64,000 nt of DNA from Amoebophrya sp. A120 (Eukaryota > Protista > Dinoflagellata), in contig CAJINV010000012.1 of the NCBI GenBank assembly GCA_905178155.1, positions 3,475,988 through 3,539,987 of the forward strand, written 5' to 3'. Both the position numbers and the translations under genes were made by a program. The notes below the pieces were generated by a model. That model had not been told where the DNA came from. It saw only the letters and a list, made by a program, of their open reading frames with translations, and ran no database searches. Shown one piece after another: positions 1,743 to 64,000 of the stretch (position 1 is its first letter; every line of letters starts with the position of its first letter).

Positions 1743-4700
1743 ATGCCTGCACAGCAAGCTGCAGAGCACGACGATGGCGACGATTCTCCTAACGAAAACG
1801 ACGTGATTTTCTTCGCGAAGGAAACAAACACCTCGTCTGCAACGGAAGATGGGACGCAAATCCAGGTAAAGCAGCCACAACCGCATCAAGATTCTGCGGA
1901 TCACCGAGAAAACAACGAGCACCAATTCACCGCACAAGCAACCAGCTCGGATGACCAACAGGAAGGGCTCCCAGGTGTAGTTGGTTCTCGTGCAGCTGCT
2001 TCATCAGGTCGCGGTGGTCCACCCGCGCCACCGCCTGCACCGCCCGCGAGCCGGAGTACGGCTGGTGCGAGGATGATGAACTCTAGCGAAGGCGGGAGCA
2101 AAACTAAAGATGAGAAAGTACTTCGAGCAAACGACCTCGAAAAGGAACCAGAAGCGATTTCGCCAGAGGACGAAGACGTCAATGGTCTCAAGGAGCCGGA
2201 ACCGCCGCCAGAAGAAGGTGGAACGGCCCCCGAACAAGTTGGGGGTGGTGAAGCAGATAGAACAAATACCGCAGATCTAGTACTACCCGTTGCAAGCGGC
2301 GAAGAACTTCTGCAGCAAGGAGCTGCACACAGTAACAGCGATGACAATCCGACACTGGACGAACTACCTGCTTTGCCCGACGCAACCTCGGGGGCAGAAA
2401 TAAGAGCGAATCAGGTTTCGGTGTTGGCACAGGAGGAAAATGCGAAAGCGCTTGCGTCTTCCTCCCCACCTGCGATAAATGCTACGGCGGGACCGAGTGG
2501 AACCGCTGTTCGACTTCGAACAAGCACTGCTGTTCTCCGCACCGGCCCCAACTGGTACTGGACCTGCACACCGGAATTTGCGAAATGGTCTTCTGACCCT
2601 TTTACGAGAGGCAGAGGCCAAGAATCTACTGCAACTACAAACGTGCTACCAACGGCAGAGTTGTCGGCTTCTTCAGCAACTACGAACAACCTCTCTCTGC
2701 GGCTCTTCGTGACGATTTGGAATTTGCACGGGAAAACCCCGCCGGCGGATTTCTCCACCTGGATTCCGCATTCGAAGGAGAATCTGCATCACCTCTACGT
2801 GATCGGCACGTGCGAATCGTGTCAGACGATAAACCGGGCGATACTCCGCCCGAAACGGTCGAAATTGGCCAAATACGCCAGGGACTTTGAGACGTTTCTG
2901 AACTCGATAGAAGTGGAAGAAAACGGGGATGCAGAAAATCACGCCGAGTTGTCCCGATCTCCAGAAGGGCTAGGGTCAGCAGACCAGCAACTCCCACTGT
3001 ACACCCCGATCGTGATCAACTCGCTGGGGGCAACGCACTTGATGGTCTTCGCGCACAGGTCCATTTTGAAGATGATTTGGGACGTGAAAACCACGACGTG
3101 CGCCTTATGAAATGCAAAAGTGTCTGGGTCTGGAAGAATGCAACTTGTGATGCTGTATTTGGATTCCAAAAAAATCTGTATTGCATGAGTAGCAAACAGA
3201 ATGCAACTTTTTCTACGCTGAGAAGGCATTTGTTAGGCATCAAGAAGCCCTCAAAAAATCTGTATTGCTAGGGTATGCATCACAGACATCATCATGGCTC
3301 ATGCAAAACGTGCATGACAAGTGTCAGAATCTTCCAGACCCAGACACTTTTACAGTTGATACGCCTGCGGTTTCGGCAACTTGGTCGGGAACAAGGGCGG
3401 CGTTTTGCTGGGCATGAGTATCTATGCATTGCAAAAGTATGATCGTACTAGTATGATAATCGCGTGACAAATTTTCTCAAAGGGAGAAATGGAATTTGTA
3501 TATGCTTGCTCAACATCAACAGTTGATGTTGAACATCTAGTTTGCATACCTGCAATTTGTCTGTACGATAGTACTTGTGCAATGCATAGCATCGGGTCGA
3601 GTTCCTTTCTCTTCGTCTGCAGCCACCTGCCCGCGCACAAGTCCGGGATGAAGCAGCGGACCGCGGCGTTCAAGCGGATCATGAATTATTCGAAAGTGTA
3701 TTTGAAACCCGCGAAGAGAATGGCGAGCAATCATGGCGCGGAGGACGAAGAAGAGGGTCAGCGCTACGATGGCCACCGTGCTGGGCGGGGGACACCAGCT
3801 GTTGGAAAAAATACGGCGAACAGCCCAGCCTCGCGTGCTAGGCCGGCATGGCAAGCTGCTGATGGGGAAGCAGATCATGCTGGAAGATCTTCGACTGAAA
3901 GAGCTGGCACTACAGCATCTTCGCAGGAGAACAACCTCCTTCGTGACAGCACAGCAACAAACGGACCTTCCTCGTCCATGCGGGTTCAACTCCCGGGCGC
4001 GATTTTGGAAGAAGGAGCACACAGGAGCCATGCAGGGGAAGATGATGAATCGTCCTCGTCTCCAGATGTCGATCTTGATGCTGATGATGATCAAATAAAT
4101 CAGTCCCGAGAAATAATGCCTGCGCGAATAGTACTGACCGACGTCGATGAAGACGATCATTCTACTACGTTGATACAACCAGCAGCACCTCGAGGTGGAC
4201 AACTGCTGCGCCTGTCACCTACTTTGCCGGTTCGTCATATCAATCCAGGTACAACTAGCGGGCTACTGTGCGGTAGTAATGAAGATGATGCAGATCATCA
4301 GTTTCAAGATGCAGCTTCAGCTATCCTGTGCAAAAGTATCGTACTCGTAGTAATTGCAGTCATGCATTACAAATATCTTTGCTAAGGTAAATCCGCATGA
4401 CAAGTTTCATTTCTCATGCTGAGGAAATTTGTAATGCATTTATACGAGTGCGATGCTTTTGCAATGCATATCAGCTTCCTCCCCCTGCTCTCTCCTGTCG
4501 AGTAGATCCAGATCATCGTCGCGCGGTGCAGCAGCCGAATGTCTGCTCTACTCCAGTCGCAGTCCAACATCAGACGATGATGAAATAAACTCGAGTTCGT
4601 CGTCTTCTTCTGATGGGGTTCTGTTCTCGGAAGATGATGAGTTTTCTTCAGAGGAAGATGTTGCCGATGTTGAAAAGGGGGACTATCTGGAGCACTCCGG

Positions 4701-6760
4701 CAACTACCTGAATCTCTCATACCAGAGTCGGGAAGGCACGCACAACCGCGAAGAGTCTCCGAGCCTGTTCTCGCGGCTTTTCGGGGGAGGAGGCGGAGAC
4801 AAGAATCGGCCGAGAGTGCATCCGGTAGCTGCTCAACATGGGACCACGACGAGCACGCCAGCCTCCTCACAGCAACAGCAGCACCCAGGATCGAATTCCC
4901 AGGCAGATTTCGTTTTCTTTTTCGGCGACCTGAATTTTCGTTTGAACATGAAACGCGAGGCGGCCGATAATTGCATAGTGCAGTCGGATATCCTGTGCAA
5001 AAGTATCGTACTCATAGTAATCGCAACCATGCATTACAAATCTCCTTCTCAAGGACAAGGAGCTCAATCCGCATGACAAATTCTATTTTTCATGCTGAGG
5101 GAATTTGTCATGCGATTTCTACTACGTAGTAGTACGATACTTTTGCATTTCATATCGGACCACCGGAAACTACTCGCAAGTGACACGCTGCTGCCCATGC
5201 TCAGCATGTTTCAGCAGCCAAGAGCAGGGGCAGGGCCACCCCCTGTGGTCGTGGATGGGCACGAGCGCCAAACCAATGCAAGCAATTCTGCTCCTTCGTC
5301 ACAGCTACTACATCGACAAAGCTCCGAAGACAACGACAGTGCAACAGACGACATCCAACCGCGGGTCGTTTTACAGCAGCCGAATAGCAGTAGTGGAGTG
5401 GATAGGCACCGCGAAAGTATCGCACTACGTACAAATTGCATCACAAGTTTGATGTTCAGCATGAGAAATGGAATTTGCAATGTGGATTGACTTTGCAAAA
5501 GAGATTTGTAATGCATAAGAAGTGCGATTAGTACGAGTGCGGTAGTTCTTTTGCAGTGCATAGTGGAGGTGGGATCTCCAACCACGGGAATGAATTCCTC
5601 TCCGAACACAGGGTATGCAAGAAAAAAACTGTGTGAGTGTAAGTTTGTGAAGATGCAAAAAACGCAAGACGGTTTCCGAAGTGCAAGTTTACGAATCGCT
5701 CCTCACCCGTGGGGAGGCGTTTTTTTTGATTTTTTCGGTCGGTTTGAAAACGTCTGGCTCTGGCCAATTTTGAAAAATTGCAAGACTTTTGGTTTTTGCC
5801 TCAGCCGTTCCGCCACCTAGTACGAATCGCTCCTCACCCGTGGGGAGGCGGTTTTTTGGATTTTTTCGGTCTGTTTGCGAAAGACGGACGCTGGCCAATT
5901 TTGAAAAATTGCAAGACTTTTGGTTTTTGCCTCAGCCGTTCTGCCGCCTACGAATCGCTCCTCACCCGTGGGGAGGCGGTTTTTGTGATTTTTTCGGTCT
6001 GTTTGCAAAAGAGGGACGCTGGCCAATTTTGAAAAATTGCAAGACTTTTGGTTTTTGCCTTGGCCGTTCTGCCGCCTACGAAGCGCTCCTCACCCGTGGG
6101 GAGGCGGTTTTTTTTTTTCGGTCGGTTTGCAGAGACTGGAGGCTGGCCAATTTTCCAAAATTGCAAGATTTTTTGTGTTTGCCTCAGCCGTTCTGCCGCC
6201 TATGAATTCTCTCCACTGGTAGCTGCGCATGACAGGTTTTTACTGTATATGAAAAACGATCTGCTCTTTCTGCACGGTTACACACACTTTTTTCCTTGGA
6301 TACCGGAACCACGGCAGGGTACCAATCATCTTTCGGCGGTGTATCGGGAGCGGTCACGGATTTGTCGACACCAACTGGTGCCGGCTCCGGTGGAGCAGCT
6401 CCTTCGTGGTCCGAGTTTGCTGAGATGCCGATCAATTTTCCGCCGACGTACAAAATCAACGCGTTTACGAGGCTGGATTACGACACGTCCAAGAAAAAGC
6501 GCGTGCCAGCGTGGACCGACCGGATTTTGTACAAACCCAACAAAAATCTGAAACCCTTGTGCTACGACGCGATTTTTGACAACGAGCAACTCTACCTCTC
6601 TGACCACAGACCGGTGTACGCGCAATTTGAGGCGGAGCTGAAGAATGTGAACAGGTGGACGCCGCTTGGGGCCGCGGTGGACCAGGGGCAGAGTTTTGGA
6701 AGCAGTGTCTCCTCCTCTGCTGCGACTACCGGGGGAAGCTCAATGTGTGTGTTGATGTGA
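1743..6760 (+). CDS. Inositol polyphosphate 5-phosphatase (INPP5E-like), 7 exons, C-terminal CaaX
   Basis: Removing 6 introners joins IPPc motifs: FVTIWNLHGK, LYVIGTCE, CA|CGFGNLVGNKGGV, FLFVCSHLPAH, FFGDLNFRL, EMPINFPPTYK, KKRVPAWTDRILY, SDHRPV. Ends CVLM-stop. Confidence 0.9.
3106..3361. mobile_element. Introner family A (TIR ..AAAAnTGTCTGGGTCTGGAA)
   Basis: TATG..GATA, DR cgcct. Removal restores TTCA|CGFGNLVGNKGG. Confidence 0.9.
3423..3588. mobile_element. Introner family B (TIR ..GCAAAAGTATCGTACT)
   Basis: DR gtatc/gcatc, frame restored. Confidence 0.85.
4322..4470. mobile_element. Introner family B
   Basis: DR tcagc, frame restored. Confidence 0.9.
4989..5154. mobile_element. Introner family B
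   Basis: DR tcgga, restores QSD|HRKLL. Confidence 0.9.
5403..5562. mobile_element. Introner family B (degenerate)
   Basis: DR gtgga, frame restored. Confidence 0.85.
5614..6302. mobile_element. Introner family L containing a nested satellite array
   Basis: TIR tatgcaagaaaaaaactgtgtg / cacacacttttttccttggata, DR caggg/ccgga. Related to 39711-39920. Confidence 0.75.
5690..6204. repeat. ~128-bp satellite, ~4 units (inside an introner)
   Basis: acgaatcgctcctcacccgtggggaggcgg recurs at ~5691, 5822, 5950, 6078. Confidence 0.9.
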
Positions 6761-7164: not shown

Positions 7165-7661
7165 CCTCAGCCGTTCTGCCGCCTACGAATCGCTCCTCAC
7201 CCGTGGGAGGGCGGTTTTTCGGATTTTTTCAGTCGGTTTGCAAATGTCTGACGCTGGCCAATTTTCCAAAGTTGCAAGATTTTGATTTTTTGTGTTGCCT
7301 CAGCCATTCTGCCGCCTACGAATCGCTCCTCACCCGTGGGGAGGCGGTTTTTTTGATTTTTTCGGTCTGTTTGCGAGAGAGTGACGCTGGCCAATTTTAC
7401 AAAATTGCAAGATTTTTTGTGTTTGCCTCAGCCGTTCTGCCGCCTACCAATCGCTCCTCACCCGTGGGGAGGCGGCTTTTTGGATTTTTTCAGTCGGTTT
7501 GCAAACGCCTGACGCTCGCCAATTTTGAAAAATTGCGAGATTTTTTGTGTTTGCTTCGGCCGTTCTGCCGCCTACGAATCGCTCCTCACCCGTGGGGAGG
7601 CGGTTTTTTTGATTTTTTCGGTCTGTTTGCATAAGCGTGACGCTGGCCAATTTTGAAAAAT
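7165..7661. repeat. ~128-bp satellite, ~4 units (intergenic)
   Basis: Same unit as 5690-6204. Confidence 0.9.
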
Positions 7662-8082
7662 TCGCACAGTATCTATCATCATGTAGCGGCGACTTATACT
7701 AGCAGGAGGATGAGGCTCAAAGGACAAGCAGGAGGTGTAGATGTAGTGTCTGTGTCGAGAGATTTGATGTTCGCAAGGTGTTGACAAGAATTGAAGAGAT
7801 GCGAGAGAAGCTATTTACTATTTACTTTCTTAGTGGTCATCTTCACGTTCAATTTCTTTGCAAGTTGACCAGGTCCCAACGTTTGTGCACTACTTTATTT
7901 TTGCAAGGTACTACAGGTACAGCTGGACAATCGTTCATAAGTAGGACTGTCTTCTTGCGCGGCAGCTTCACGTTCACTTTCAATTTGAGTACTAGTTTCC
8001 GGCACGTTTCAGTAACGACTTGAATTCTACTGCATCGATATTGAACTGCTCTTTTGGTGTAGAAGTGCAAGAAAACCACGAC

Positions 8083-9256
8083 ATGGCCACACCGAGTAGA
8101 AGTGCAAGTCGTGCCAGCTCGCAGCGCTCCTCTGCGGGAGCGGGTCAATCCCGAACAGAGGAAGACTGCGAAAGGCTCGACGCGTGCCTGGACTTTCTCG
8201 TTCGAGTCGTTCCGCAAACAATTTTTGCTCCGTGCATAATGTTGACGGAAGCAGCGGCGGCGGGCGGTGGATCAACATCTTCTACAGCCGCGAGGAATTA
8301 TGCAACAGAGTCCGAGCGACAGGAGGCGGAACTCTACGCGAAGGTCCCGCAACTACTCTCCACCCAGTCGCACCTGCTAATTCCGAGACGCCGAATCATA
8401 TCGCAAGCTGTAGCACGACTGACGCTCCTCGGCCGAAGAGGTCCGCAAGGAGGAGGGGGAGCAAGAACCGCAACCACTTCTGGTTCTGAAGACGCGCCAC
8501 TAGTAGTAAACGAGTACGACGCAGATGAGGATATCAACGAAGCACTGAAGCAGATTGCCACGGTGCCGACCCTGCAGGCCGAGCTGTGGCGCCGGGACCC
8601 AGACGCGATTCCCGAACCGCTGCAAGCCGCGGTGTTGCACGTGTTTCTGCGGGATTTGGTCGCCAATTTTCAGAGGTTTGAGGACGAGTCGTTGATCAGG
8701 CGAGGGTCGGTTGGCAGCAAACAAACCAGCGACGCTGTGGACGAAGACGGGAAAATTTTTATTACAAGGAAAAATTATCACCCCTCCCCATATCGAAAAC
8801 GAAATTCAAATTTGTGATGCTGTATCTGAGAACACAACTCGACCTGTATTGCTAGAAGGCCAAGACCAAGAGCCACAGCTGTGGCCTCGTTTGCAGGCAA
8901 TTTGTCATGCTTCTTCCCACTTCCAGCTGCCTCCTGTCATGCTGAAGCTGCAAGGCTTGTTTCCCACGCCACCCAGCACTACAGGACTCCTGTAGTGCTG
9001 GGTGGCGTTCCAAGTAGTCCGCATCTTTTGCCTTCTAGCATGACAGAGCTGATTTCTTGTGGCCACACCCACAAATCTGCATCACAGATTTTCCCTTTCG
9101 TTTTGATACGGGGAGGGGGGATTTTTCTTCTTGATAGTTTTGATCGCGGGAACACGACCATCTCCACCACCACCTGTGGAGGTCGTAGACGAACAACCAG
9201 CTGAAGATCCTCCCCGCGCCGGCCCCCCGGCAGCACCTCGTCGAATCATCTGGTAA
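8083..9256 (+). CDS. Hypothetical protein, 2 exons
   Basis: ORF from ATG 8083 continues KIL|IAGTRPSPPPP..RRIIW* after removing element 8760-9136. No recognisable domain. Confidence 0.6.
8760..9136. mobile_element. Introner family C (TIR ..GGAAAAATCCCCCTCCCCATATC)
   Basis: DR atttt/gtttt, similar to 33485-33795. Confidence 0.85.
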
Positions 9257-9274
9257 CCAAAGCGTGCGCAAGCG

Positions 9275-9329
9275 CTCGCAAGAGCGCTTTGCGCGCGGGC
9301 TTGCCCGCGCGCAAAGCGCTCTTTGCGAG
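9275..9329. repeat. GC-rich hairpin, 21-bp perfect stem, TT loop
   Basis: aagagcgctttgcgcgcgggc-tt-gcccgcgcgcaaagcgctctt. Confidence 0.9.
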
Positions 9330-15443: not shown

Positions 15444-18442
15444 ATGTTCACGAGTGAGATTTTGTCCTCGCGTTTAGGATGGAATCCGTTGCCGGTGCAT
15501 TTTGCTGAGGACAACGCGTTTCGGGTGTTGGAGGTGATCTCGTCCGAGACTACCGTGTTTGAGGTCTTGCAGGACCTCTTTCTGCTCGCTTGGTTCGGCA
15601 AGCAGGCCGACGGGTTTGATACTTTTACTATCTCCTGCTCGGGGCGGGTGGAAACAAGAACTACAAGTTGTCCAGCGTCTTCTACCTCTGCCACACAACA
15701 GGCAGTTTTACTCCACGAACAAGGGCCGCCGGGCGATAACAGTATAAAAACTTCTGCAGGTGAAGAACCAGCCCCAGCGGGAACATCAACTGCAAGAACT
15801 TCAGAACAGAGCGCTCCTCACAGTGTAGATTTAGTAGAGCACCATGCACATCATGCAGCTGTTGCTGTAGCAGATCCTGATCCTGCTTCAACATCCTCAA
15901 CATTTGGCGAAGATCCTCGACACCAGGGCCGCAAGGGCATCGACATCGCGGAAGTAGACCACGTGCTCCACACCGCGGCGCGCACGTCTGTAACGCACTA
16001 CAGCTATTTTCGCGACGAGGAGTTTCTTGTTCTACGGGAAGGTCCTCGTGCGAACTCCGATTGTCAAGATGAACGACCCAGCGGCACAAAAACAAGTCGG
16101 GGAAGTAGAAATCTAGGTGGCATCAGCACGACCATAACGACCCTGCAAAGTCAGCTTCTGAAAGCAGCCGGCGAACAAGAAGCTGGTAGTACGTACAACA
16201 AGAAGACCACTGCAGACACGACAGGACCACATCCTCAAGACGAGCCTCTTCTCGGTAGTACGGTACCCGCCACGACCCGTTTGCATTCGTCGAGTGCCTG
16301 CTTGACCCCTTTCTTCCGTCACGATGACGAGAAGTACCAGGCACTAGAGACCTTGGAAGCCCGCGAGCGGTTTCTCGAGCGGCAATACCGGTTATTGCTC
16401 CTCAGGATTCAGCAGGCGACGAAAACCTCGAACAAGCTTGTGGGATGTAGTAGTAGTACAACAACTTCTACTGCTTCTTCTACTACAGGGGTGCAACAAC
16501 TTCTAGCGGACGATAACTTTATCTCCAGTTGCGTGGATCCACTCTTCGCAGTCGTGCAACGAACCGATTCGAACGCAAATTGTAAAGCGACGAGCCGCAC
16601 CGGAGAACAAGTAGGCTCGTGTAGTTCATCCCCTGCTGCTGGTGCAGCTGACCACCTCCTGCAAGAACAGGACGACAGAGAGCAAAGGACCACCGCTGGT
16701 GCTGCTTTTTTCGAAAAAACCGTTCGGCTCTTCCTCCAGGGTCCGGGGTCTACCACCGTTTCGTCGACGAGAAGACTTCGGAATCGGAAAAAAGATCGTG
16801 TCCGCGACATAAACCTGCACGACCGGGAAGCTGCAGCCGGAGCTAGATCAAGATCTAGAGCAACGGTGGAAACAACTGCGGACCACAAGACGAGCTTTTT
16901 CCAGCGAGAGCTGTTTCTTTCTGAGCGCCCTCTGGAAATTTTGAAAAAAGCGGACGGTCACGGTGCTACCTTGAAGCTCGTGGTCGATCTCCGCCGGGTC
17001 TTCGAGTCGGAGAAACAAAAGCGGAGAAGTATCCTATGTAAAAACGTCCCCACCCCATAGTCAAGATGGGGAATCTGCTAGACAAATCAACCAGCTCTGG
17101 TTGCTACGCATGACAAGTTTATTTGCCTCGTAGTGTGATCCTGTTTAGCTAGCTCCAGCAGCATTACAGAGGACCTAGCGCATCGCACTGATTCGAGCAT
17201 CACAAGCACCGAAACACAACTAGAAAATAATGCCTGTGATGGGTCTCCGCATGAGAAACATTCGCAGCGTGCGCATTTGCATTTACAACTATGGGGTTGT
17301 GGAGGGGACGTTTTTACTCAGGATAAGAAGGTTTGAGTTCGTGCCCGATTTTGCGTTTTTGAAACAAGCCGAGCTGCTATCAAAGGAAAAAAGTTCGTCA
17401 CGATCACTCATGCGCATTTTCCCAATACAAAATTTTCTGTCATGCGTAAAAACGCATCAGAGCCACACTTCATAAGGGATTTCCCTAGTGTTTCTGCAAT
17501 ACAAGGAAAGGCTGCGATGCGAAAAAAATTTGTAATGCAAAACCTGCAAGTTAGTGACTGTGACAAACTTTTTTCTCTCCATAGCTGCCAGATGTGGATG
17601 TGGAAGACGACACTGTGCAGCTAATATGCATTGTAGAAGTACAATCCTCGTGCTCGTACTAGTTGTAACTATGCATGACATCAAATCTTGTCCTTAAGGT
17701 AAAACAGCATGACAAAATCCCGTTCTGATGCTGAAAAAATTTGTAATGCATTTGTACGAGTGCGATACTTTGCAGAGAATAGCTAACAAGCTTCAACAAC
17801 TCACCAGCAGGGGTGGACGAGCAAGAAGTGAATGATAATGATAGGGCCGCCGGCGCGAAGATAGAACTACGAGAGCCGCACCAGAATCAGGTTGTTCAAG
17901 CAGATCGATCGCAGGTGCACCTTATCAAGTGCAAAAATGTCTGGGTCTGGAAGAATTCATGTTTGTCATGCTTGTCTGGCATGACTCTTAAATCGGTCAT
18001 GCACGTTACCCAAGAGCTCCGTTTTTCTTTTTCTGTGATGCAGAAGCGCAGTTTGTTATGCAGAATCTGCAACACCTAGGAGCTCAGAAACTTGTCATGC
18101 TGAGCCAGCATTTGTAGCCTCATCATGAGACGCCACCCAGCATCACAAGTTTCCAGACCCAGACACTTTTGCATTTGATACACCTTTTTTCCACTCCGTC
18201 TCCGGCACCAGGGACTACACCAGAGGAAGTACGGACTAAAGCCCGTAGTTCACAGCATCATCAGGAGGAGTTCTTCGCGGATAATGAGTGCAAAGAACTA
18301 CGGGATAGAAGTAGCGCAGCTAGCGGCAAGACAAGAGCTGTTGACAAGAGTTGTGATCCACCCGCAGGAGCTGCGCCAGGAAGTAGAAGTACTAGGACTT
18401 CTGCAGCGCGGGGGGCCGACGAGGAACGGGACGAGAGGAGAA
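15444..18442 (+). CDS. Hypothetical protein; 3' end lost in repeat/gap, start uncertain
   Basis: 570-codon ORF stays in frame across 4 introners (RRR|FEFVPDF, EL|PDVDV, QL|TSFNN, HL|FSTP). Confidence 0.65.
17030..17325. mobile_element. Introner family E (TIR ..TAAAAACGTCCCCACCCCA)
   Basis: DR agaag. Confidence 0.9.
17378..17583 (+). mobile_element. Introner family D (206 bp)
   Basis: DR gctgc, near-identical to 26775 and 28373. Confidence 0.9.
17625..17781. mobile_element. Introner family B
   Basis: DR gctaa. Confidence 0.85.
17923..18180. mobile_element. Introner family A
   Basis: DR cacct. Confidence 0.9.
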
Positions 18443-18482
18443 TATCCTGTGCAAAAGTATCGTGCTGCTCGTAGTAATTGCA
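18443..18482. mobile_element. Introner family B, left end only
   Basis: tatcctgtgcaaaagtatcg followed by unrelated repeat DNA and a gap. Confidence 0.7.
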
Positions 18483-48831: not shown

Positions 48832-49981
48832 ATGGTCGTCGCAACAGACAACAAATCGGAGCTGATTGTCAACACGGCAGGCAAGAAACTCATTTCTTTT
48901 GCCGAGGTGGAGCAGTTGATGAAGAACTTCGAAGACAACTACAACAAGGGCGACTACGCCGGGGCGGTTGACGCCTACAAGAAAACCTGCGACGTGAAGG
49001 TGAACGGCGGGACGGAGTGCGGCGGGGTGTTTTCGGGGAAGACGAAAGACGAATTTGCCGCTTTTTTGAAGTACATGCGCGAGGAGTTGTATGGAAGTGT
49101 CAGGTTTGCGATCGACAAAGTTGAAATCATGATTTGCCATGCATAAAATGCCAGGCATGAAGTGCCTGTGTTGCCGGGATGGCAAGTGAGGCCGATAATT
49201 GTGAGCCTGTTTAGGGTTTATTGACATAGAGCTGCTAAACTAGCATGACAAAAACAGTCTTCTGTGCTCAAACAGCATGACAAATTGGATTCCGGTGCTC
49301 GGAAAATTTGTCATGCGCCGCTTGATAAGTGGGCTTCCGACTGGTGTCGGTTTTATGCATGGCAAACTATTTCAGCTTTGACGGTTTCGATCCTGACACA
49401 TCCATAAGTTGAATGCGAAGGACATGCAGTTTCTCGTCACGTCGGTGAATTCCCTGAAAGCCAACGTGCACACGGACACCTTCACCACCACCGCGGGTGT
49501 TGGGAGCTGCGTGGCCACCTGGGCGTTTGATGAGGAGCAGCAGAAGTGGGAAACTATCAAGGACCAAATCACGTTTGCCTTCCACGAGAAGCCGTTCATC
49601 TCTCACGAGGTTGTGTGCGAAAAGATGCTCGAATTCGAACAATGCTACAACAAGGGCGATTTCCCCGGCGCGGCGAAGGCGTATGCCGACAACTGTTTTG
49701 TCACGGTGAATGGCGGGAAGGAGCAAAACGGGCCTTTCACTGGGAAGACTAAAGAGGAATTCGAAGGGTTCTTGCAGTTTATGTACGAAACGGTGGGCGC
49801 GAGGGACATGCATTTTACCGTCACCTCCGTGAAGGACAACGTGCACACAGACACTTTTGTCACCACGAAGGGCAACGGGGCCTGTATCGCGAAGTGGGCA
49901 CTGGTGGAGGAGGAGTGGAAAACGGTGCAAGATCAGATCACCTGGGTGCCGTTTGAGGAGGTGGACGAGGCGGCCGCGTAA
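48832..49981 (+). CDS. Protein with two tandem NTF2/SnoaL-like domains, 2 exons
   Basis: Two ~125-aa repeats (FEdnYNKGDyaGA..AY...VNGG...GKTKdEF..FL..M...AkDMqF.VTSV...VHTDTF.T..G.G.C.A.WA). The join EL|NAKDMQF matches VGARDMHF in repeat 2. Confidence 0.8.
49090..49406. mobile_element. Introner family G
   Basis: DR agttg, highly similar to 45435-45745. Confidence 0.9.
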
Positions 49982-55715: not shown

Positions 55716-58700
55716 ATGACCGGCGCACCAGAAGATGCAATGGAAAAGATGCTGCCTCAACAACCAGCACCGAGGACGTGGTCCGCCGTGCAAGGACTTG
55801 GTGCTAGTACCAAAAAGCCCAAGAAAAATAATAAAAACCCTCTTTCTGCTCACAACAAGGAAGTACTACGTCAGGCCACGACGACACTGCATGCGGATGC
55901 CGCAACCAGCACGGAAACCCTCTCTGAGACCCTGCCCAGCCTCGCGGTGCAGCGCGAGCAGGCGGAGCAGGAGATGCTGCTGGATTTCCCTTTTGATTTA
56001 CGGAGAACGCAGTTAATCGCCAGGTTGTTCGAGCTGGTGCAAGACCACGCGGAAGAGAAGTCCACGGTGGTGCAACAAGATGTCGCGCAACTCTTTCTCT
56101 GTATTCACAGGAAATAATTTCCCCTGCACGTACAAATGCTATTTCCGCATGACAAAACTTGCCTCCAATCTGAGTCAGCATGACAGGAAGTTGGTTCGGC
56201 ACACTCCAAGTGAAAAATAGCGCAACCTGTCATGCATTTTGCACATGTGCCGCAGGAAATTGGTATGGCATACTCTCCGCCGGGATTCTCGAGGCCAACG
56301 TGTACTTCTACCAGAGTGAAGAGATTGACCAGGGGTGCGTGATCGGCCCCAGTGTCTCCTTACAGGAAGTCGTGCAGCAGTTTATGAAATGTAAAAATGT
56401 CTGGGTCTGGAAGAATGCACGTTTGTCATGCTTGTCTGGCATGACTCGGGAATCTGTGTTGCATAGGCACGAAAAAGCCTTCTTACCTGTCATGCAAAAA
56501 CGCAGTTTGCCATGCGGAATACGTAAGACATGGCAGCCAAAAAATTTGTGATGCATAGCTGTGTATTGCAGTACGTCTATCATTCATTTTTAGCATTACA
56601 AGTTTCCAGACCCAGACATTTTTACATTTGATACAGTTGTTGGTACAGCAGAACGAGAGCAGCAGCTTTCAAGGCCTAGAAAATATCCTGTGCAAAAGTA
56701 TCGTATTCGTATAAATGCAAGTCTTGCATTACAAATCTTCTTCTTGAGGCAAATCCGCATTACAAATTTTATTTCTCATGCTGAGGAAATTTGTGATGCA
56801 TTTATACGAGTACGATACTTTTGCAATTCATAGAAAATGGTGGTGGTGAGCAAAATGACCCCCTAGATCACGATCCTTTCGTGTTAGACGACCGCTTATG
56901 TATCACCCAGGAGCTCTTCGAGTCCTTACTGCAAGAGATGACAAACCTCGAGCTGGCACAATGCGTCGACGCGGTACTGGATCACGCATTGCAAATGGAG
57001 ACCAGTTGGGGGATCAGCTGTCCGATCCACAACAGCGGTCATCTTCCAGGTGGTCAACACGGGACCACGACGAGTTCATCGCTGAAGCTAAAAGGTGCAA
57101 ACGGGATCGCCCTCTATGAAAACGACCTTTTCCTGGCGGACTCGATGTCGCATGCCATATTTCGCATCAGAAACTGGAGCGGAAATAATAATGGGGGAGC
57201 GAGTTCTTTGGGAAATAACCTGACGAATCGAAATAGCAGTACTGCTGGAGTGACCGGGTTGGCGGGAGGAGGTGGTGTTGGGAACAACAATCTTCCTGGT
57301 ATTCTTGCACTTGCTGAATCCACCATCAATGCGGTCCTCATCACGTTGAGAGTTCTTGTTGTAGTCAGAGTCTCTGTACGAGAACGAGTACGACCTGCTG
57401 CGCTTAAAAATCTACTGGTGATGTTGTAGACTGTTGACTACGTCGTACTGCCGCGTTACTTGTTCGTCAAACATAGTTCTTTACTTCATCGATGATCTTT
57501 CAGTAGAAAAATCTCGCCGCTTATGTTTTCCTATTATCCTATCTAAATCAGGCCCCACGTCCTACCAGTTGCACCAGCACGACCACTATCAAGTGTAAAA
57601 GTGTCTGGGTCTGGAAACTTGTAATGCTGGGCGGCGTATCATGAGGAGGCTACAAGTGCTGGCTCAGCATGACAAGTTTCTGAGCTTCTTGGTGTTGCCT
57701 ATTCTGCATGACAAACTGCGTTTCTGCATGACAGAAAAATGGGGGTCTTGGGTAATGTGCATGACAAATTTAAGAGTCATGTGAGACAAGCATGACAAAC
57801 TTGCATTCTTCCAGACCCAGACATTTTTACAGTTGATAACCACCGGTCGGGCTCTACCACGACCAGCGGGGGCAGCAGCGCGACCGGCAGCATTGTGTAT
57901 ATGAAATGCAAAAGCATCGTACTAGTAGAAATCGCATGACAAATTCTCTCAGCATGAAAAATGGAATCTGTAATGTGGATTTAGGTAAAGAAGGAAATTT
58001 GTAATGCATGACAGCGATTACTACGAGTGCGATACTTTTGCACAGCATTGTGTACAACCCGCACCAGCAATACAGCCCGACGAGCGGGGGCGGGGGCGGT
58101 TCTTTCGGCGGGGGCAACAGCACGTCGAACGCGGCGGCCAATAGTTCGTCGTCACCTTCTCGAGGAGGCGGACATCACCAGCAGCACCCTTTTGCCCACC
58201 AGAATTCTACTACTTCCTCATCCGCAAGCCAGAACCTCGAGCTTTTCGCGGGTAAACTGAAAAACCCGGGTTTCCGGGACGGCCCGAGAGCCCTGGCCCA
58301 GTTCAACGGCCCCTCTGGGCTGTGCATCTGCCGCAGAACCGAGCAGCTTTACGTCGCGGACACGAGGAACGACAGCATCCGCGCGATCGATTTGATCTCC
58401 GGCCTGGTGCAAACCTTGACGGTGCAGTCGGTGGATTTTATTGGCTTGTCCAACCCAGTGGACATTTGCATAGTGTACGGTGACTTCGACTACGAAGACA
58501 ATGAGTCCTCCGACAACAACAGTTCTGGAGATGAGGAAAATAACCGGCTGAATGGAAACAACTCCGATGGTGGCAACATACGAGAAGGTACAACCGCTCC
58601 CCCTACTGCTACCGCTCATTTGTCATGCAAAATCCCAATATATGCAGTCGCTCTCGCTGCCTCATAGTCATATCACTACAGTTTGCGTAACAAATTCCGG

Positions 58701-61700
58701 AACAAGCCGAAACAGTACTACACTGGGCGCACCAAATTTGTCATGCGTAGGCTTTACGCGTGCTGGTGTTTGTATTCGTATTGCTGTACATGCTAAAAAA
58801 ATGATGGGGAGGCGGGGAAGTCCGAGTTGTGCATCTTCATACAAGAATTCTGACGACGAGAACGATAACGCGAACAAACCGAGGCTGGAGCAGATCCAGG
58901 AGGAGGACTCCGCCGAAGTGGAACTGGAAGACGCGTCCGAGCAATTCGCGAACGCTGGGGGGGCTGGCGGGTTATCCGGGTCGATTATGGAAGCGGCTAG
59001 CAGCAGGCGGAGAATGATGTCGGACTTGTACAACATATCAAATGCAAATATGTCTGGATCTGGAAAGGAGGAACTTGTAATGCGTGTCATGCATACCAAT
59101 ACCTGGAAAATCTGTGTTGCATGAGCAGCAAATGGGCTCCTGCTTCCCTTGTCATGCAAAAACGCAGTTTGTAATGCGTGTTAGGCATTAGTGGCGCTTG
59201 CTTCGGAAGCTTGTCATGCTTCGCTGCCATTGAAAGCGTTGCAATCATGCGCAACTCAGCATGACAGGGTTCCAGACCCAGACATATTTACATTTCGTAC
59301 AACAGGCGGCGGTCCGCGAGGTTCAGCTTAGCGGATGAGTACGGCATTACGCCTATCGTATTTAAAAACGTTCCCAACCCATAGGATAGTCGTAATGCAA
59401 ATCTGCATGCTGGAAATGTTTCTCATGCGGAGCCCCATGCGAAGCATTCTCTAGCCACGTTTTGGAATTTGTCATGCTCCAATCAGCATGATATACTAAA
59501 TCTGTAATGCTGCTGAGCTAGCTCAAACAGCACGACACTACGACTCCAAATTTGTCATGCGAAACAGCCAAAGCTTGTGGATTTGTCTAGCCGATTCCCC
59601 ATCTTGACCATGGGGTGGGGACGTTTTTACGTAGGATAACGCCGAGTGGGAAGTCGTCTGTCCGGACGAGCCGGAGGACCTCCCGGGCGTACACCTCTTA
59701 TCCTGTGCAAAAGTATCGTATTCGTAGTAATCCCATTCATGCATTACAAATTTCTTTCTCAAGTTAAATCCGCATTACAAATTTCCTTTCTCATGCTGAG
59801 GAAATTTGTATTGCAATTCATACTTACTAGTACGATACTTCTCCACAGGATACCTCTGATTCGATGACAACGACGAGAAGAACGTCTCTCAATCTATTAG
59901 ACCACACGAGCGGGAACGTGATCGACAGTCTGCGAGAGTTGTCCGGGGTTATCAAGTGTAAATAGTGTCTGGGTCTGGAAGAGTGCATGTTTGTCATGCT
60001 TGTCTGCCATGACTCTCAAATCTGTCACGCACGTTACCCAAGAGCGCCATTTTTCTGTGATGTAGAAACGCAGTTTGTCATGCAGAATAGGCAACACATA
60101 GAAGAAGCTCAGAAACTTGTCATGCTGAGCGAGCACTTGTGGCCTCCTCACGATACGCCACCCAGCAGCACAAGTTTCCAGACCCAGACGCATTTGCATT
60201 TGATAGGAGTGGCGAATTCCCAATTCGACAAGCTGCCCGTATGGGATTCTCAATTGTTACATTCTCAACTGTTACAGGAATTTGTCATGCAAAAGCACCA
60301 TCATCATCCTCACGATCAAGCTACTCCGCATGACAAATTTGGCAAGGCCTAAAGCGCGCCTAAATCTGTGCGGAATTCGTAATGCTACAGGTGCAACCTT
60401 CCCCCTTGTACTTTTCCAATTCTTGCATCACAAGTTCATGTAACAGTTCTTGAGAATGTAACAGTTGAGAACGCCATAGCCCGACCTGGCGATTGCTTGC
60501 GACCACTCGGTTTTTGTGATTAAACGGTCTGGCACTTTGGAAATGTCCTTCGTCGCGGGGAACATTTTATCCAGGAGAAAACACCCATCCCCCCATCCAT
60601 TGGTTGCATGACAAACAAAGGAGCTTATTCATGTTTTGCATGACAAATTGGATGGGGATGGGTGTTTTTTTCTGGATGCGTTTCCGAATACGGCTACAAG
60701 GACGCGGCGAAGGGTTCGGACGCGCGGTTTAGCCAGATCCGGGGAATTTGCTCGATTCGGAATTCTATCAACTGCAACCTTATCGTACTAGTTAATGAAT
60801 TGCAATACTTACAAAGTGACTCCGCATTAAGGATATCCGATATTCAAGTTTGTAGTTTGGATTTACCTTAGCAGCGTAGAGTTGAGTTGTAGTGCATAAG
60901 TGGAACTACTACGAGTACGACTACGTCGGTACTTTTGCATTGGATAAGTTCCGTCTTCGTCGCTGACCATTGGAACAACGCGGTCCGGTGTATCTATCCA
61001 GTGAAAATATGTCTGGGTCTGGAAACTTGTGATGCTGGCTTGGGAATGGTGGACACACTGCAATACGCAGCCAAACATGACAAATTCTTAAGCTGCTATG
61101 TGTTCTTGCGAGGTCTGCATGTGCAGGGCAAACTGCGGCTGCGAGTTCTGCATGGCAGACTGGGGTTTTGCACGGGAGGCAAGAGACTCTCATCCTGCTC
61201 ATGCATCACAGAGGTAGGAGTCATGAGAGACAAGCATGACAAACTTCTACTCTTCCAGACCCAGCAGATCGATATTTGCAATGCATAGCATCAATTTGAA
61301 AACCACGGGGGTCGACACGGTCATGGACTTTGAGCCAAACGGGCCGCTTATCTTGAGTAAAAATGTCCTCATACCAGAGTTGTCATGCAAATGCGCAATG
61401 AGAGCAACATTTGTAATGCGCGTCTCCATGAAAGGCACTTCCACTCGTGTTTTGGACTTTGTAATGCTGTAGGCAGGATGGGAGGCTGGATTTCTCATCC
61501 GGCTTCCCTTGCTAACCAGCACTACACTGCAGATGGAAGCTTTTCATGCGCAGCGCCCAAAACTTGGAGATTTGTGTTGCTGATTTACCAACTTGACTAT
61601 GGGGTGGGGACGTTTTTACACAGAATACCGCTGAAACTGACAGCCTCCGACTCTGGGTATTTGTACGTTCTGGACTCCGACACAATTCACATGTGCAACA

Positions 61701-64000
61701 TTTTGAAAATCTGTTCGGTGCAGCGGGAAAATCTGAGCACGTCCGGAGTTATCCACAGTAAATTTCCCGTACACGTGCAAATGCGGTCTCTGCATGGCAA
61801 GACTTGGCTTCGATCCTAGTTTAATAGCATGACAAGTTTCACACTCCAAATTGGGGAAATTTGTGATGCATCTTGTACATGTACGGGAATGGGAAATTTG
61901 TATTGCATAGGAGTGAATGGAAGCTCACTGGGCACCTTGTCGTTCCAGAACTTGCAGAAGCAAACGCTTTCTGGCATCGGAAATCATGCTGCTGGTGCAA
62001 GCAATACAAGAAGCAGCATCGGTGGAGCTGCCGGTGGTCCTGTGCCGCCGACAACTGGAGCTGTATCTACTGCATCGCCCGCCGTCGGTGGTGGTGTGAG
62101 CAAGGGCACTTTGCTGGGGGGAAAGAGTCCCATTCTCTCCGCTAGGAAGCTTTCCTTCACACCGAACCTGAACACGAAGACCGAGAATAACGAGAACACC
62201 TCCTCCGCCAGCAGCTCTAGCGGCGGTGCAGAGACGACCAGTGCTGACAGCAACCAACTTAACGTCAACAGGAACCAACCCCGGTCCGGGTCCTTCTTAG
62301 ACGCGAATTGGCGCACTGTATGATGATTTGCAAATATGTCTGGGTCTGGAAGATCCTAAACTTGTGATGCTGTCTCTGGATTCTAAACAAAATTGTGTAG
62401 CATGACCAGCAAGATGAGGGCTCCAGTTTGATGTCCTACGCGGAGAGGGCATTTCTCATGCGGTAGAGGCATCGCATAGCCGTCTGAAAATCTGTGATGC
62501 TAGGACATGCATCACAGACATCATGGGTCATGCAAAATGTGCATGTTGACAAACCTGGCAATCTTCCAGACACAGACATATTTGTAGTTGACACACTGCC
62601 ACGGATCACAAGAGTTTTCAGGATATGCTGTGCCAAAGTATCGTACTCGTAGTAATCGCAGTCATGCATTACAAATTTTTTTGTCAATGTAACTCCGCAT
62701 TACAAATTTCATTTCTCATGCTGAGGGAATTTGTCATGCATTTATACGAGTACGATACTTTTGCAATTCATACAGGAAGAACGGAAACGAAAGCTGTCCG
62801 CGGCTGCAGTGGAGTTCAATTTTGCCGCGGCGGCCGCGGGCACCATGGTAGCAGGTGGTGGACGAGGAGTTCCTCTTGGTGCGTCAACTTCTTCTACGGG
62901 AAAAATATATGCTGGTACTTCGACTTCCTTTCCCACCCCATGCACAGTGCCCAAAGTCGTCGTATCGGTACTACCCGCAGGATCAGCAGCTGCATCTACT
63001 TTCCATGCCGGAGCGACCGGCGCAGGAGCAGGTTCACAAACTGCGCCCCACGGCGCAGCTGTGGTTGGTTTCTCACTGGACGACGATGATGACGATGATG
63101 AAGAAGACAGCGAGACGGAAAACGATTCGCGTTCGGAATCCGCGGTAAGCTCCAGAACATCCAAGACAACCTCCACTACAAACAAGAACAACCAAGGAAT
63201 AAATGGTAATGGAAATGAAAGCTCGACGTCCACCTCCAAGGTCGTCGTGGATACCGATACCAAGAACAATCCACCGAATGGAGCGGTCGTTTCGATTGTG
63301 CAAGTGCAGGTGCCCGGGTCACCGGTGAAAAGCAAGAGTCATTTATCGGCGTCGGCGGAAGTAGGCTCAGCTGGCTCATCTAGTACGGGCAAAAGCGCCA
63401 GCTGCAATGGTCCTCTACTACAGGACGTCGCAGGAGATCAGCATAGTCCTCGCGATGCATCTTCATCAAAGACTGTTCAAAATAACCTGAACCTCCTTCA
63501 ACCTGTCAACTCCTCCGCGTCCAATGCCTCCAGTTCCCGCCGTGGCAGTTTTTCCGATCCTTCGATTCTCAACGCCCCGAACCTCCCCGGTTTCAACCCA
63601 AACAACTTGACCAATATGAACTGCAAAAGTATCGTACTCGTATAAATGCATTACAAATCTTCTCAGCATGAGAAATAAAATTTGCAATGCGGATTTGACT
63701 TAGCGAAAAGATTTGTAATGCTTGATTGGAATACGAGTACGATACTTTTGCACAGGATAACCAACCACGGGGACCAAAACGCGAATTTGCTCATGATGCC
63801 AAATCATCAAATGTAAAAATGTCTGGGTCTGGAAGAATGCAACTTGTAATGCGTATTTCAGAACACAGAAAAGTCTCTCATGCATACGTAGCAAAAGCTG
63901 CCCACTTTCTGTCAGCAAAGTAGGGGACTTGTCATGCGGATTCGGCATTGCGGAAGCTTCTCGAAACCTGTGATGCTAGAGCTTCCATGCCAGACCTTCT
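55716..64000 (+). CDS. Large NHL-repeat (beta-propeller) protein with low-complexity linkers; partial, continues beyond window
   Basis: NHL motifs: ANGIALYENDLFLADSMSHAIFRI; GFRDGPRALAQFNGPSGLCI..LYVADTRNDSIRAID; reassembled GYKDAAKGSDARFSQIRGICSIRNS|VFVADHWNNAVRCI|NL. Confidence 0.85.
56102..56272. mobile_element. Introner family I
   Basis: DR ctctg/ctctc, related to 61750. Confidence 0.8.
56383..56633. mobile_element. Introner family A
   Basis: DR cagtt. Confidence 0.9.
56684..56832. mobile_element. Introner family B
   Basis: DR gaaaa. Confidence 0.9.
57299..57551 (+). other. Probable canonical GT-AG intron (donor position uncertain)
   Basis: A phase-1 join G|GC restores the frame. Pyrimidine-rich acceptor ending tcag. 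Confidence 0.55.
57587..57838. mobile_element. Introner family A
   Basis: DR accac. Confidence 0.9.
57900..58049. mobile_element. Introner family B
   Basis: DR gtgta (extends to 12 bp). Confidence 0.85.
58579..58841. mobile_element. Introner, family J-like (degenerate)
   Basis: DR caaca/caaga, frame restored. Confidence 0.7.
59036..59299. mobile_element. Introner family A
   Basis: DR caaca. Confidence 0.85.
59354..59638. mobile_element. Introner family E
   Basis: DR acgcc. Confidence 0.9.
59699..59852. mobile_element. Introner family B
   Basis: DR cctct. Confidence 0.9.
59950..60205. mobile_element. Introner family A
   Basis: DR ggggt/ggagt. Confidence 0.85.
60240..60478. mobile_element. 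Introner family F
   Basis: DR gcccg. Confidence 0.9.
60568..60678. mobile_element. Introner family M (111 bp, shortest)
   Basis: TIR tatccaggagaaaacacccatcccc / ggggatgggtgtttttttctggatg, DR cattt/cgttt. Confidence 0.85.
60766..60946. mobile_element. Introner family B (degenerate)
   Basis: DR aattc/agttc. Confidence 0.8.
60995..61287. mobile_element. Introner family A
   Basis: DR gtatc/gcatc. Confidence 0.85.
61349..61627. mobile_element. Introner family E
   Basis: DR ccgct. Confidence 0.85.
61750..61909. mobile_element. Introner family I
   Basis: DR ggagt. Confidence 0.85.
62319..62593. mobile_element. Introner family A
   Basis: DR cactg. Confidence 0.85.
62624..62772. mobile_element. 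Introner family B
   Basis: DR cagga. Confidence 0.9.
63615..63759. mobile_element. Introner family B
   Basis: DR accaa. Confidence 0.9.
63805..64000. mobile_element. Introner family A (cut by window edge)
   Basis: catcaaatgtaaaaatgtctgggtctggaag. Confidence 0.8.

What the first reader, a model, noticed from the sequence alone, without database searches (positions are those of the whole stretch)
3106..64000. A non-GT-AG intron system: 73 TAT...ATA inverted-repeat elements with 5-bp direct repeats interrupt the genes
Seen: 73 elements in ~13 sequence families (A 22, B 27, C 4, D 3, E 3, I 3, F/G/J/L 2 each, H/K/M 1 each). They have TIRs, nearly all have TAT..ATA ends, and a site-specific 5-bp DR. 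For all 71 complete ones, deleting the element plus one DR restores the frame, often inside conserved motifs (GNKGG, NHL, exportin-T). Only 27621 and 36663 can be slid to GT-AG. Known: transposon-derived introners and IR/DR-bounded non-canonical introns have been reported in Amoebophrya, so the phenomenon itself is not new; to my knowledge the removal mechanism and the transposase are unresolved. Inference: a precise excision machinery reads a terminal stem plus the DR rather than splice dinucleotides.
Basis: partly seen in the sequence, partly recalled or inferred. Interest (0 to 1): 0.92.

Follow-up and report, generated by a model that had tools for sequence, protein, structure and literature searches.

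The report
Amoebophrya transposon introns lacking GT-AG
In a marine parasite, 71 small transposon-like inserts interrupt protein-coding genes without normal splice signals, and 29 of the 37 examined are missing cleanly from a likely messenger-RNA assembly; the system is already published, and the new part is a likely fixed cut position that would make its unknown removal machinery testable.

Summary
The window is Amoebophrya sp. A120 (100% match to deposited proteins), and these are its published introner elements (Farhat 2021). I recover 71 complete and 2 truncated elements with TAT..ATA inverted ends and a 5-bp target duplication. All 71 lie in coding exons, and only 2 can slide to GT-AG. 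One assembled contig that also lacks two GT-AG introns lacks 29 of 37 examined elements, each as element plus 5 nt (10 direct joints, 19 by length sums). The duplications show no GT or AG bias in 289 oriented copies. Added here: mismatched duplications suggest the cut falls after base 4, so the intron would start N-TAT, a donor-like GTAT with position +1 free, and end 4 nt past the hairpin. This rests on few sites, and one contig row points the other way. All families share a conserved internal TGT-V-ATGC motif. Selection for RNA stem pairing did not replicate. No transposase, lariat data or DNA-run control was obtained. Best guess: a relaxed, U1-less spliceosome guided by the hairpin (0.5). 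This scan noted similar introns on other DNA before.

The parts
3106..3361 (.). element, ~260-nt family; DR CGCCT/CGCCT
   Evidence: ORF restored
3423..3588 (.). element, ~150-nt family; DR mismatch at position 2
4322..4470 (.). element, ~150-nt family
4989..5154 (.). element, ~150-nt family
5403..5562 (.). element, ~150-nt family, starts TAG
5614..6302 (.). element, 689 nt, swollen by a 128-bp tandem repeat; DR with 2 mismatches
8760..9136 (.). element, ~320-nt family; DR mismatch at position 1
17030..17325 (.). element, ~285-nt family
17378..17583 (.). element, 206-nt family
17625..17781 (.). element, ~150-nt family
17923..18180 (.). element, ~260-nt family
18443..18480 (.). truncated element: left end only, followed by a 41-bp repeat array and an assembly gap
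21523..21888 (.). element, 2-member family; the paralogous gene near 13180 has the empty site
24843..25193 (.). element, singleton
   Evidence: residue-exact in P0004
25243..25504 (.). element, ~260-nt family
25538..25748 (.). element, singleton
25788..26192 (.). element, ~150-nt family with an internal insert (405 nt)
26252..26519 (.). element, ~260-nt family
26575..26724 (.). element, ~150-nt family
26775..26980 (.). element, 206-nt family; an 8-nt micro-exon follows
   Evidence: joint in contig
26994..27215 (.). element, singleton; DR mismatch at position 4 (contig row and public model disagree)
27300..27447 (.). element, ~150-nt family; DR mismatch at position 2, 5' copy kept
   Evidence: joint 27296>27450
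27621..27849 (.). element, singleton; can slide to GT-AG
27917..28069 (.). element, ~150-nt family; the public model keeps its first 39 nt
28373..28578 (.). element, 206-nt family
   Evidence: joint in contig
28625..28794 (.). element, ~150-nt family
   Evidence: joint in contig
29402..29676 (.). element, ~260-nt family
   Evidence: length sum
29725..29879 (.). element, ~150-nt family
   Evidence: length sum
30971..31314 (+). canonical GT-AG intron (344 nt), absent from the same contig
31596..31785 (.). element, singleton
31851..32108 (.). element, ~260-nt family
32229..32383 (.). element, ~150-nt family
32427..32701 (.). element, ~260-nt family
33120..33381 (.). element, ~260-nt family
33485..33795 (.). 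element, ~320-nt family, ends AGA
33990..34145 (.). element, ~150-nt family
34213..34536 (.). element, ~320-nt family
34621..34770 (.). element, ~150-nt family
34824..35088 (.). element, ~260-nt family; DR mismatch at position 1
35146..35451 (.). element, ~310-nt family
35838..35990 (.). element, ~150-nt family
   Evidence: joint in contig
36044..36364 (.). element, ~320-nt family
   Evidence: joint in contig
36663..36927 (.). element, ~260-nt family; can slide to GT-AG
37108..37375 (.). element, ~260-nt family, ends ATC
37449..37605 (.). element, ~150-nt family; DR mismatch at position 3, public model has the 5' copy
37721..37857 (.). element, ~150-nt family; DR mismatch at position 1, 5' copy kept
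38638..38786 (.). element, ~150-nt family
   Evidence: joint in contig; fold
38856..39127 (.). element, ~260-nt family
39711..39920 (.). element, singleton
40272..40421 (.). element, ~150-nt family, starts TAC
   Evidence: joint in contig
40486..40655 (+). canonical GT-AG intron (170 nt), absent from the same contig
   Evidence: joint 40481>40652
40948..41222 (.). element, ~260-nt family
   Evidence: joint in contig
45435..45745 (.). element, ~310-nt family; DR mismatch at position 5
46031..46309 (.). element, ~260-nt family; DR with 2 mismatches
49090..49406 (.). element, ~310-nt family
56102..56272 (.). element, 2-member family; DR mismatch at position 5
56383..56633 (.). element, ~260-nt family
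56684..56832 (.). element, ~150-nt family
57587..57838 (.). element, ~260-nt family
57900..58049 (.). element, ~150-nt family, ends ATT
58579..58841 (.). element, singleton, starts TAC; DR mismatch at position 4
59036..59299 (.). element, ~260-nt family, ends GTA
59354..59638 (.). element, ~285-nt family
59699..59852 (.). element, ~150-nt family
59950..60205 (.). element, ~260-nt family; DR mismatch at position 3
60240..60478 (.). element, 2-member family with 21523
60568..60678 (.). element, shortest (111 nt), ends ATG; DR mismatch at position 2
60766..60946 (.). element, singleton; DR mismatch at position 2
60995..61287 (.). element, ~260-nt family; DR mismatch at position 2
61349..61627 (.). 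element, ~285-nt family
61750..61909 (.). element, 2-member family with 56102
62319..62593 (.). element, ~260-nt family, ends ACA
62624..62772 (.). element, ~150-nt family; read through in public model P0006
63615..63759 (.). element, ~150-nt family; read through in P0005 and P0007
63805..64000 (.). element cut by the window end, ~260-nt family, starts CAT
1743..6757 (+). host gene, inositol-phosphatase type (PF22669), 6 elements
24608..29914 (+). host gene with a weak BART match (E 0.01), 15 elements; public model P0004
31482..41798 (+). host gene, exportin-T (PF19282), 22 elements and 1 coding-region GT-AG intron; identical to P0003

Best explanation
These are the published introner elements of Amoebophrya A120: short non-coding inverted-repeat inserts with a 5-bp duplicated target, likely mobilised as non-autonomous DNA transposons, and likely cut out of the pre-mRNA by a relaxed spliceosome at a predicted fixed register. 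SHOWN: the anatomy, the location in coding exons, exact loss of element plus 5 nt in an assembled contig, and no GT or AG preference in the duplications. INFERRED: the cut falls after base 4 of the duplication. The intron then begins one base before the inverted repeat (N-U-A-U-G/C, the canonical GUAU donor with +1 free) and ends four bases after it. The hairpin between the two inverted repeats would bring the ends together and set the acceptor by distance, with no AG. Because both ends read TAT, either orientation works, and because exactly one duplication's worth is removed, the protein is unchanged, so any exonic insertion is tolerated. The shared TGT-V-ATGC motif is likely a binding site for a common transposase, or for a splicing adaptor.
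For: Identity: an exon hits an A120 protein at 100%. The A120 repeat motif, TAT + 7 loose bases + at least 3 A, matches. Exact removal: 10 direct joints and 19 more by length sums with zero residual, in a contig that also lacks two GT-AG introns. The 1675-aa public protein equals my model over 22 elements. Duplication: 213 of 269 copies chosen without any repeat criterion have a perfect 5-bp repeat, against 1 for 4 bp and 0 for 6 bp. A paralogue has the empty site with no codon gained. Register: the 5' copy is kept at positions 1 and 2 (contig) and at positions 3 and 4 (public models). A Rab-like gene needs the 5' copy at position 4 (Ala 18 of 48, Asp 0 of 48). A sugar dehydratase needs the 3' copy at position 5 (Arg 5 of 40, Pro 0 of 40) and the 5' copy at position 1 (Met 29 of 40, Val 0 of 40). 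The first T is invariant at the transcript 5' end (289 of 289) but not its mirror at the 3' end (281 of 289; p 0.007). All 9 predominant A120 motifs in Table S4 have T at +2. Both orientations occur. The spliceosome is nearly complete and U1 snRNA was not found.
Against: The contig row 26774>27216, taken at face value, gives the 3' copy at position 4 and so a cut at or before base 3. I read it as possible extension through one mismatch but could not verify that. My advance prediction of a cut after base 3 failed, and the base-4 model was fitted afterwards. Positions 3, 4 and 5 each rest on one or two sites, from annotation or homology rather than reads. Public models come from BLAT alignments, which may favour the 5' copy, and aligner sliding could also produce the Table S4 pattern (recalled behaviour). 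G at +1 is at background level (89 of 289), as is AG at the acceptor (28 of 289). The first-T asymmetry is one of 16 positions examined, falls to p 0.02 with the CAT-starting truncated element, and 5 of its 8 exceptions are U-G wobbles, which also fits a stem. G-U over A-C excess appears in the window (61:35) but not in the second assembly (115:116). There is no lariat, branch-point or inhibitor evidence. The run's RNA status is the tool's guess.
Confidence: 0.5

Rival explanations
1. A spliceosome-independent endonuclease and ligase reads the terminal hairpin and cuts at fixed distances from its base, as suggested for euglenid nonconventional introns. This is closest to the first reader's idea.
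For: There is no dinucleotide bias at any cut position. Removal works in either orientation, and conservation is almost symmetric between the two ends. 64 of 70 elements fold with the two ends paired, with z about -7.7 for two examples. An 8-nt exon is handled. U1 snRNA was not detected.
Against: Selection for RNA pairing did not replicate. Stem positions 4 and 7 are Watson-Crick paired in only 134 and 93 of 289 copies. The inferred 5' end resembles a donor, and GT-AG introns in the same genes begin GTAAGT or GTATAG. In the tunicate Fritillaria a comparable class is reported as spliceosomal (review and abstract).
Confidence: 0.25
2. The machinery is as in the best explanation or the first rival, but the cut lies elsewhere in the duplication (after base 2, 3 or 5) or varies between introns.
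For: The contig alone only requires a cut after base 2 or later, and one row suggests base 3 or earlier. The source paper draws the splice position as variable or unknown. No transcript evidence was obtained for position 5.
Against: Public models give base 4 or later. Homologue residue counts bracket the cut at base 4.
Confidence: 0.18
3. The elements are excised from the DNA at some life stage, like ciliate internal eliminated sequences, and the RNA is copied from cleaned DNA.
For: They have DNA-transposon anatomy with a precise duplication. No DNA run was laid as a control.
Against: The assembly retains all of them. The joined contig also lacks GT-AG introns, so it behaves as mRNA. The source study validated such junctions by RNA-seq against the genome.
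Confidence: 0.05
4. The elements are retained in transcripts, or spliced at ordinary GT-AG sites nearby.
For: 33 of 71 have some in-frame GT..AG within about 12-17 nt of both ends. The public model P0004 keeps 39 nt of element 27917.
Against: All 10 visible joints and all 7 length sums remove exactly element plus 5 nt. P0003 is residue-exact over 22 elements. 60 of 71 elements have stops in all three frames.
Confidence: 0.02

Closest known systems
Introner elements among the non-canonical introns of Amoebophrya sp. A120 (Farhat et al. 2021, PMC7789003; sections 10-12, 16, 25, 32 and part of the supplement read)
   Same: Same strain and same objects: inverted repeats starting TAT and ending in an A run, short direct repeats over the boundaries (a 5-bp example is in the legend of Fig. 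S19), repeated families, mean length about 234 nt here against 240 nt there, removal from RNA without GT-AG.
   Different: The text gives repeats of 3-5 nt and leaves the splice position unknown. Here the repeat is strictly 5 bp, a register after base 4 is inferred, and the shared internal motif and 30-69-nt exon spacing are noted. Figures S19-S25 could not be seen and may already show part of this.
Non-canonical MITE-derived introns of the tunicate Fritillaria borealis (seen through the review PMC11282704 section 6 and the abstract of PMC13326754)
   Same: Inverted repeats plus target duplication, non-GT-AG ends, coexistence with canonical introns.
   Different: There the ends are mostly AG-AC or AG-AT, and removal is attributed to a spliceosome with divergent U2AF and altered snRNA methylation. 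Here neither end dinucleotide is fixed, apart from the inferred +2 U and +3 A, and U1 snRNA was not found.
Euglenid nonconventional introns (review PMC11282704 section 6)
   Same: Ends joined by a hairpin, duplication-like repeats at the junctions, mechanism unresolved.
   Different: They show a pyrimidine|purine junction consensus, which is absent here, and they are released as circles, which is untested here.
Algal introners of the Micromonas and Aureococcus type (passages of PMC9860276)
   Same: Non-autonomous DNA transposons that create introns, enriched in genes, with linker-like spacing.
   Different: They carry or co-opt GT and AG, and some add codons. These co-opt neither and add none.

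Membership tests
Amoebophrya A120 introner elements (Farhat 2021) | host is strain A120 | tested here: met
   100% identity to deposited A120 proteins
Amoebophrya A120 introner elements (Farhat 2021) | 8-20-nt inverted repeat starting TAT, seven loose bases, at least three A | tested here: met
   position tables, against the text
Amoebophrya A120 introner elements (Farhat 2021) | 3-5-nt direct repeat over the exon-intron boundaries | tested here: met
   5 bp: 55 of 71 perfect in the window; 213 of 269 in an unbiased set
Amoebophrya A120 introner elements (Farhat 2021) | repeated families, removed from RNA at non-GT-AG ends | tested here: met
   clusters; joints and length sums; only 2 of 71 can be GT-AG
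MITE / non-autonomous TIR DNA transposon | terminal inverted repeats, constant-length target duplication, no coding capacity, either orientation | tested here: met
MITE / non-autonomous TIR DNA transposon | empty site without the duplication | tested here: met
   one case: the paralogue of the 21523 site aligns without a gap
MITE / non-autonomous TIR DNA transposon | cognate autonomous element with a transposase | tested here: inconclusive
   9 candidates over 600 nt in 147 loci; ORFs of 6 long candidates read by eye, none transposase-like, not scanned against Pfam; 0 viral hits; no genome held
U2 spliceosomal intron | GT (GC) donor and AG acceptor | tested here: not met
   background frequencies at every possible cut
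U2 spliceosomal intron | lariat with a branch adenosine; dependence on U2/U6 | not testable with these tools
   the internal motif holds UnAy on both strands but is equally conserved near both ends, so it is no evidence of a branch point
Euglenid nonconventional introns | hairpin joining both ends | tested here: inconclusive
   predicted in 64 of 70; selection for pairing not replicated
Euglenid nonconventional introns | pyrimidine|purine junction consensus | tested here: not met
   no base bias at any duplication position in 289 copies
Euglenid nonconventional introns | excised as full-length circles | not testable with these tools
   no excised-intron data
Micromonas/Aureococcus-type introners | carry or co-opt GT and AG from the element or the duplication | tested here: not met
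   GT 89 of 289 and AG 28 of 289 at the best register, equal to background

The most novel reading that the evidence does not exclude
A120 has a second, sequence-blind splicing route. A protein that recognises the transposon's own signals in RNA (the TAT-ended hairpin and the TGT-V-ATGC boxes shared by all families) cuts one base before and four bases after the hairpin. This undoes the transposase's 5-base stagger exactly, so the transposon family supplies both its DNA-insertion code and its RNA-removal code, with no lariat.
Probability: 0.2. Interest if true: 0.85.

Novelty: already known. Interest (0 to 1): 0.45.

Why it matters
The class is published for this strain, so its existence is no surprise. 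What remains open is how tens of thousands of introns without GT or AG are removed. This work narrows that question. Removal is exactly element plus one duplication, the duplication's sequence is not read, and 16 of 71 elements carry a mismatched duplication that marks the true cut in existing RNA reads. A fixed cut after base 4 would mean the donor keeps only +2 U and +3 A while the acceptor is set by distance alone, a further relaxation of spliceosome rules than reported for Fritillaria. Circles or inhibitor-resistant removal would instead reveal a new splicing enzyme. A fixed rule would also correct gene models in this genome.

Tried and rejected
Run search: no RNA holder listed. Raw RNA runs X9 and X10 covered only element sequence from other loci (5 and 3 of 30 bins), so they say nothing on these junctions. 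X3 and X7 are one study and may be the source of the public models, so they are not independent support; no silent stretch was laid. A cut after base 3 was predicted in advance and failed against P0004. A symmetric cut one base outside each end (N|TAT..ATA|N) would leave 3 extra nt and is excluded by the length sums. A cut after base 1 (TAN acceptor) is excluded for 27300. The G-U versus A-C test was positive in the window, null in the second assembly and 176:151 pooled (p 0.18); private changes gave 22:21. A mutation spectrum to polarise mismatches was too flat to use. The idea that the CAT-starting element 63805 is unspliced came from P0005 and was contradicted by P0007. The public model for the last gene came back only as pieces that cover no mismatched repeat. 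One search used the wrong frame and found nothing. The 80 dehydratase homologues were discarded because the seed pattern contained the Arg; the counts come from 54 loci found with a query starting after it, 40 of them scorable. The enoyl-CoA hydratase site was uninformative. Of 23 second-assembly sites with amino-acid-changing mismatches, I tested only these three. No Rfam match was found, no viral copy, and no locus orthologous to the window among the top 30 rows. Five paper searches showed no later work on the A120 cut position or mechanism; subscription papers and figures are not covered.
Full report
1. Observation. Scans blind to reading frames find the elements far above chance. There are 43 pairs with a perfect 5-bp direct repeat and at least 14 of 20 inverted matches, against 0.0 per shuffle, and 39 hits against 0-3 in a motif-free scan. 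Rescue with an end profile gives 71 complete and 2 truncated elements. All 71 start TA, 55 have perfect repeats and 16 have one or two mismatches. Removing element plus 5 nt places all 71 in 11 long + strand ORF segments, and the control with 1 or 2 nt more or less destroys these. Only 27621 and 36663 slide to GT-AG.

2. What it is. An exon matches a deposited Amoebophrya sp. A120 protein at 100%, and so does an exon of a second gene. My element-free exportin-T model is identical to the 1675-aa public protein across 22 elements and one GT-AG intron. Farhat et al. 2021 (PMC7789003; I read the abstract, sections 10-12, 16, 25 and 32, supplement passages and part 3 of 5, but no figures) describe exactly these elements. 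In A120 the inverted repeats start TAT and end in an A run, and the direct repeats are 3-5 nt. They count 29,850 repeated introns, found no U1 snRNA and no A120 transposase, and leave the border position unknown. Gozashti et al. 2025 (passages) assign A120 introners to several transposon classes, including an integrase-like family with inverted repeats. The system is therefore already known.

3. Removal is exact. In window 24500-41800 (37 elements), one 8793-nt contig of run X3 shows 9 joints that remove 10 elements, each exactly length plus 5; run X7 shows the same joints. Seven gaps between listed pieces account for 19 further elements with no residual other than two GT-AG introns of 344 and 170 nt. 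Eight elements were not displayed. The loss of GT-AG introns argues that the contig is mRNA, although the tool only guesses the run type and grouped sums could hide compensating errors. Five removed elements have mismatched repeats, so repeat identity is not required. No DNA run was laid, so excision at the DNA level is not formally excluded.

4. Transposon anatomy in a larger sample. A motif scan found the same families in a second assembly (147 loci; up to 98.7% identity). Of 269 copies chosen on inverted repeats alone, 213 have a perfect 5-bp repeat, 1 a 4-bp and none a 6-bp repeat. I oriented 218 of 369 by restored frame; 87 of 87 neighbouring pairs agree in strand. Pooled with the window (n = 289), the duplications have no base bias, and GT or AG occur at background frequency at every possible cut. 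Both orientations are common. A paralogue shows the empty site of 21523 without a gained codon. All families share internal TGT-V-ATGC boxes. I did not see them mentioned in the sections read. No autonomous element turned up.

5. Where is the cut? With identical repeats the position is invisible; mismatches reveal it. The contig keeps the 5' copy at position 1 (37721) and position 2 (27300). For position 4 (26994) its row starts at the first base of the 3' copy, which suggested a cut after base 2 or 3. With the public exportin model keeping the 5' copy at position 3, I predicted base 3. That prediction failed: the public model of the other gene has the 5' copy at position 4. The contig row may reflect extension through one mismatch three bases from a piece end, which I could not check. 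Two conserved genes in the second assembly then bracket the cut. At a Rab-like site the position-4 alternatives are Ala (5' copy) or Asp, and 48 distinct homologues have Ala 18 times and Asp never (53 of 80 loci scorable). At a dehydratase site the position-5 alternatives are Pro (5' copy) or Arg, and 40 of 54 scorable homologues have Arg 5 times and Pro never. Together these favour a cut after base 4, on few sites and partly after the fact.

6. Mechanism. A cut after base 4 makes the intron start N-T-A-T-(G/C), the canonical GTAT donor with +1 free, and end four bases after the inverted repeat with no AG. The first T is the only position more constrained at the transcript 5' end than at the 3' end (0 of 289 against 8 of 289 deviations, p 0.007, weak after counting positions). 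The ends pair in 64 of 70 predicted folds, but selection for RNA pairing is not shown: G-U against A-C is 61:35 in the window and 115:116 elsewhere. I therefore favour a relaxed U2-type spliceosome that uses the start of the repeat as donor and the hairpin as a ruler for the acceptor (0.5). A spliceosome-independent hairpin-cutting enzyme (0.25), another or variable register (0.18), DNA-level excision (0.05) and retention or GT-AG use (0.02) follow. Shown: anatomy, exact removal, absence of dinucleotide choice. Inferred: transposon mobility, register, spliceosome involvement, role of the boxes.

7. Comparison. It is a member of the A120 introner class (all tested features met) and fits a MITE except for the missing transposase. 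It fails the GT-AG test for U2 introns, which lowers membership but not the claim that it may be spliced by that machine, as reported for Fritillaria (review section and abstract only). It lacks the euglenid junction consensus and does not co-opt GT or AG as algal introners do (passages). Five searches found no later paper on the A120 cut or mechanism; the unseen figures S19-S25 could hold part of it. Four earlier notes of this scan describe similar hairpin-bounded introns in other genomes; I did not test them.

8. Verdict. The feature is real and already known. It keeps moderate interest (0.45) because the removal mechanism is open, and the mismatched duplications give a cheap, decisive test of the inferred register.

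Noticed in passing
window, elements throughout; also loci L001-L147: The motif TGT-V-ATGC (V = A, C, G; T in only 4 of 835) occurs 145 times in 16.6 kb of elements against 3 times in 47.4 kb outside. The first copy usually sits 30-45 nt from an end, and it deviates from the family majority at 3-6% against 16% for other interior bases.
   Followed up: partly
window coding exons: All 71 elements lie in coding sequence, which is 44% of the non-element DNA. 26 of 60 exons between elements are 30-69 nt (9.7 expected from uniform placement), and element lengths peak near 150, 205, 260 and 320 nt, which suggests chromatin-phased insertion.
   Followed up: partly
window 24500-41800: One 8793-nt contig runs through both the BART-like and the exportin-T genes, including the DNA between them. 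This could be overlapping untranslated regions or a two-gene precursor; a contig cannot tell.
   Followed up: no
window 35338-35451, run X9: 171 reads from another copy of the 35146 family have a loose end at 35338 that looks like a template-switch adaptor (identity recalled) and run out through the repeat into unique sequence. This suggests a transcript start or a reverse-transcriptase stop about 113 nt before an element end.
   Followed up: no
window 27917-27956: Public model P0004 keeps 39 nt of this element and starts the intron at an internal TATGCA, either a cryptic second start or an annotation error.
   Followed up: no
window 5690-6207, 7165-7662, 10880-11688: A 128-bp tandem repeat family sits inside element 5614 and in two intergenic arrays.
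   Followed up: no
window 12600-13840 and 20900-22539: These are paralogous genes with a shared upstream region (76% over 361 nt); only the second carries an element.
   Followed up: yes
window and loci, mismatched duplications: 33 of 71 mismatches are synonymous against about 30% expected, as expected if half of each pair is exonic. The 5 amino-acid-changing mismatches at positions 1-2 in the window are all A in the 5' copy and G in the 3' copy.
   Followed up: partly
   Followed up: partly
PMC7789003, strain A25: A25 repeats start TTA-R-R, and all 9 of its predominant motifs start TT. Both strains may therefore keep +2 T and +3 A of a donor, although aligner sliding could mimic this.
   Followed up: no
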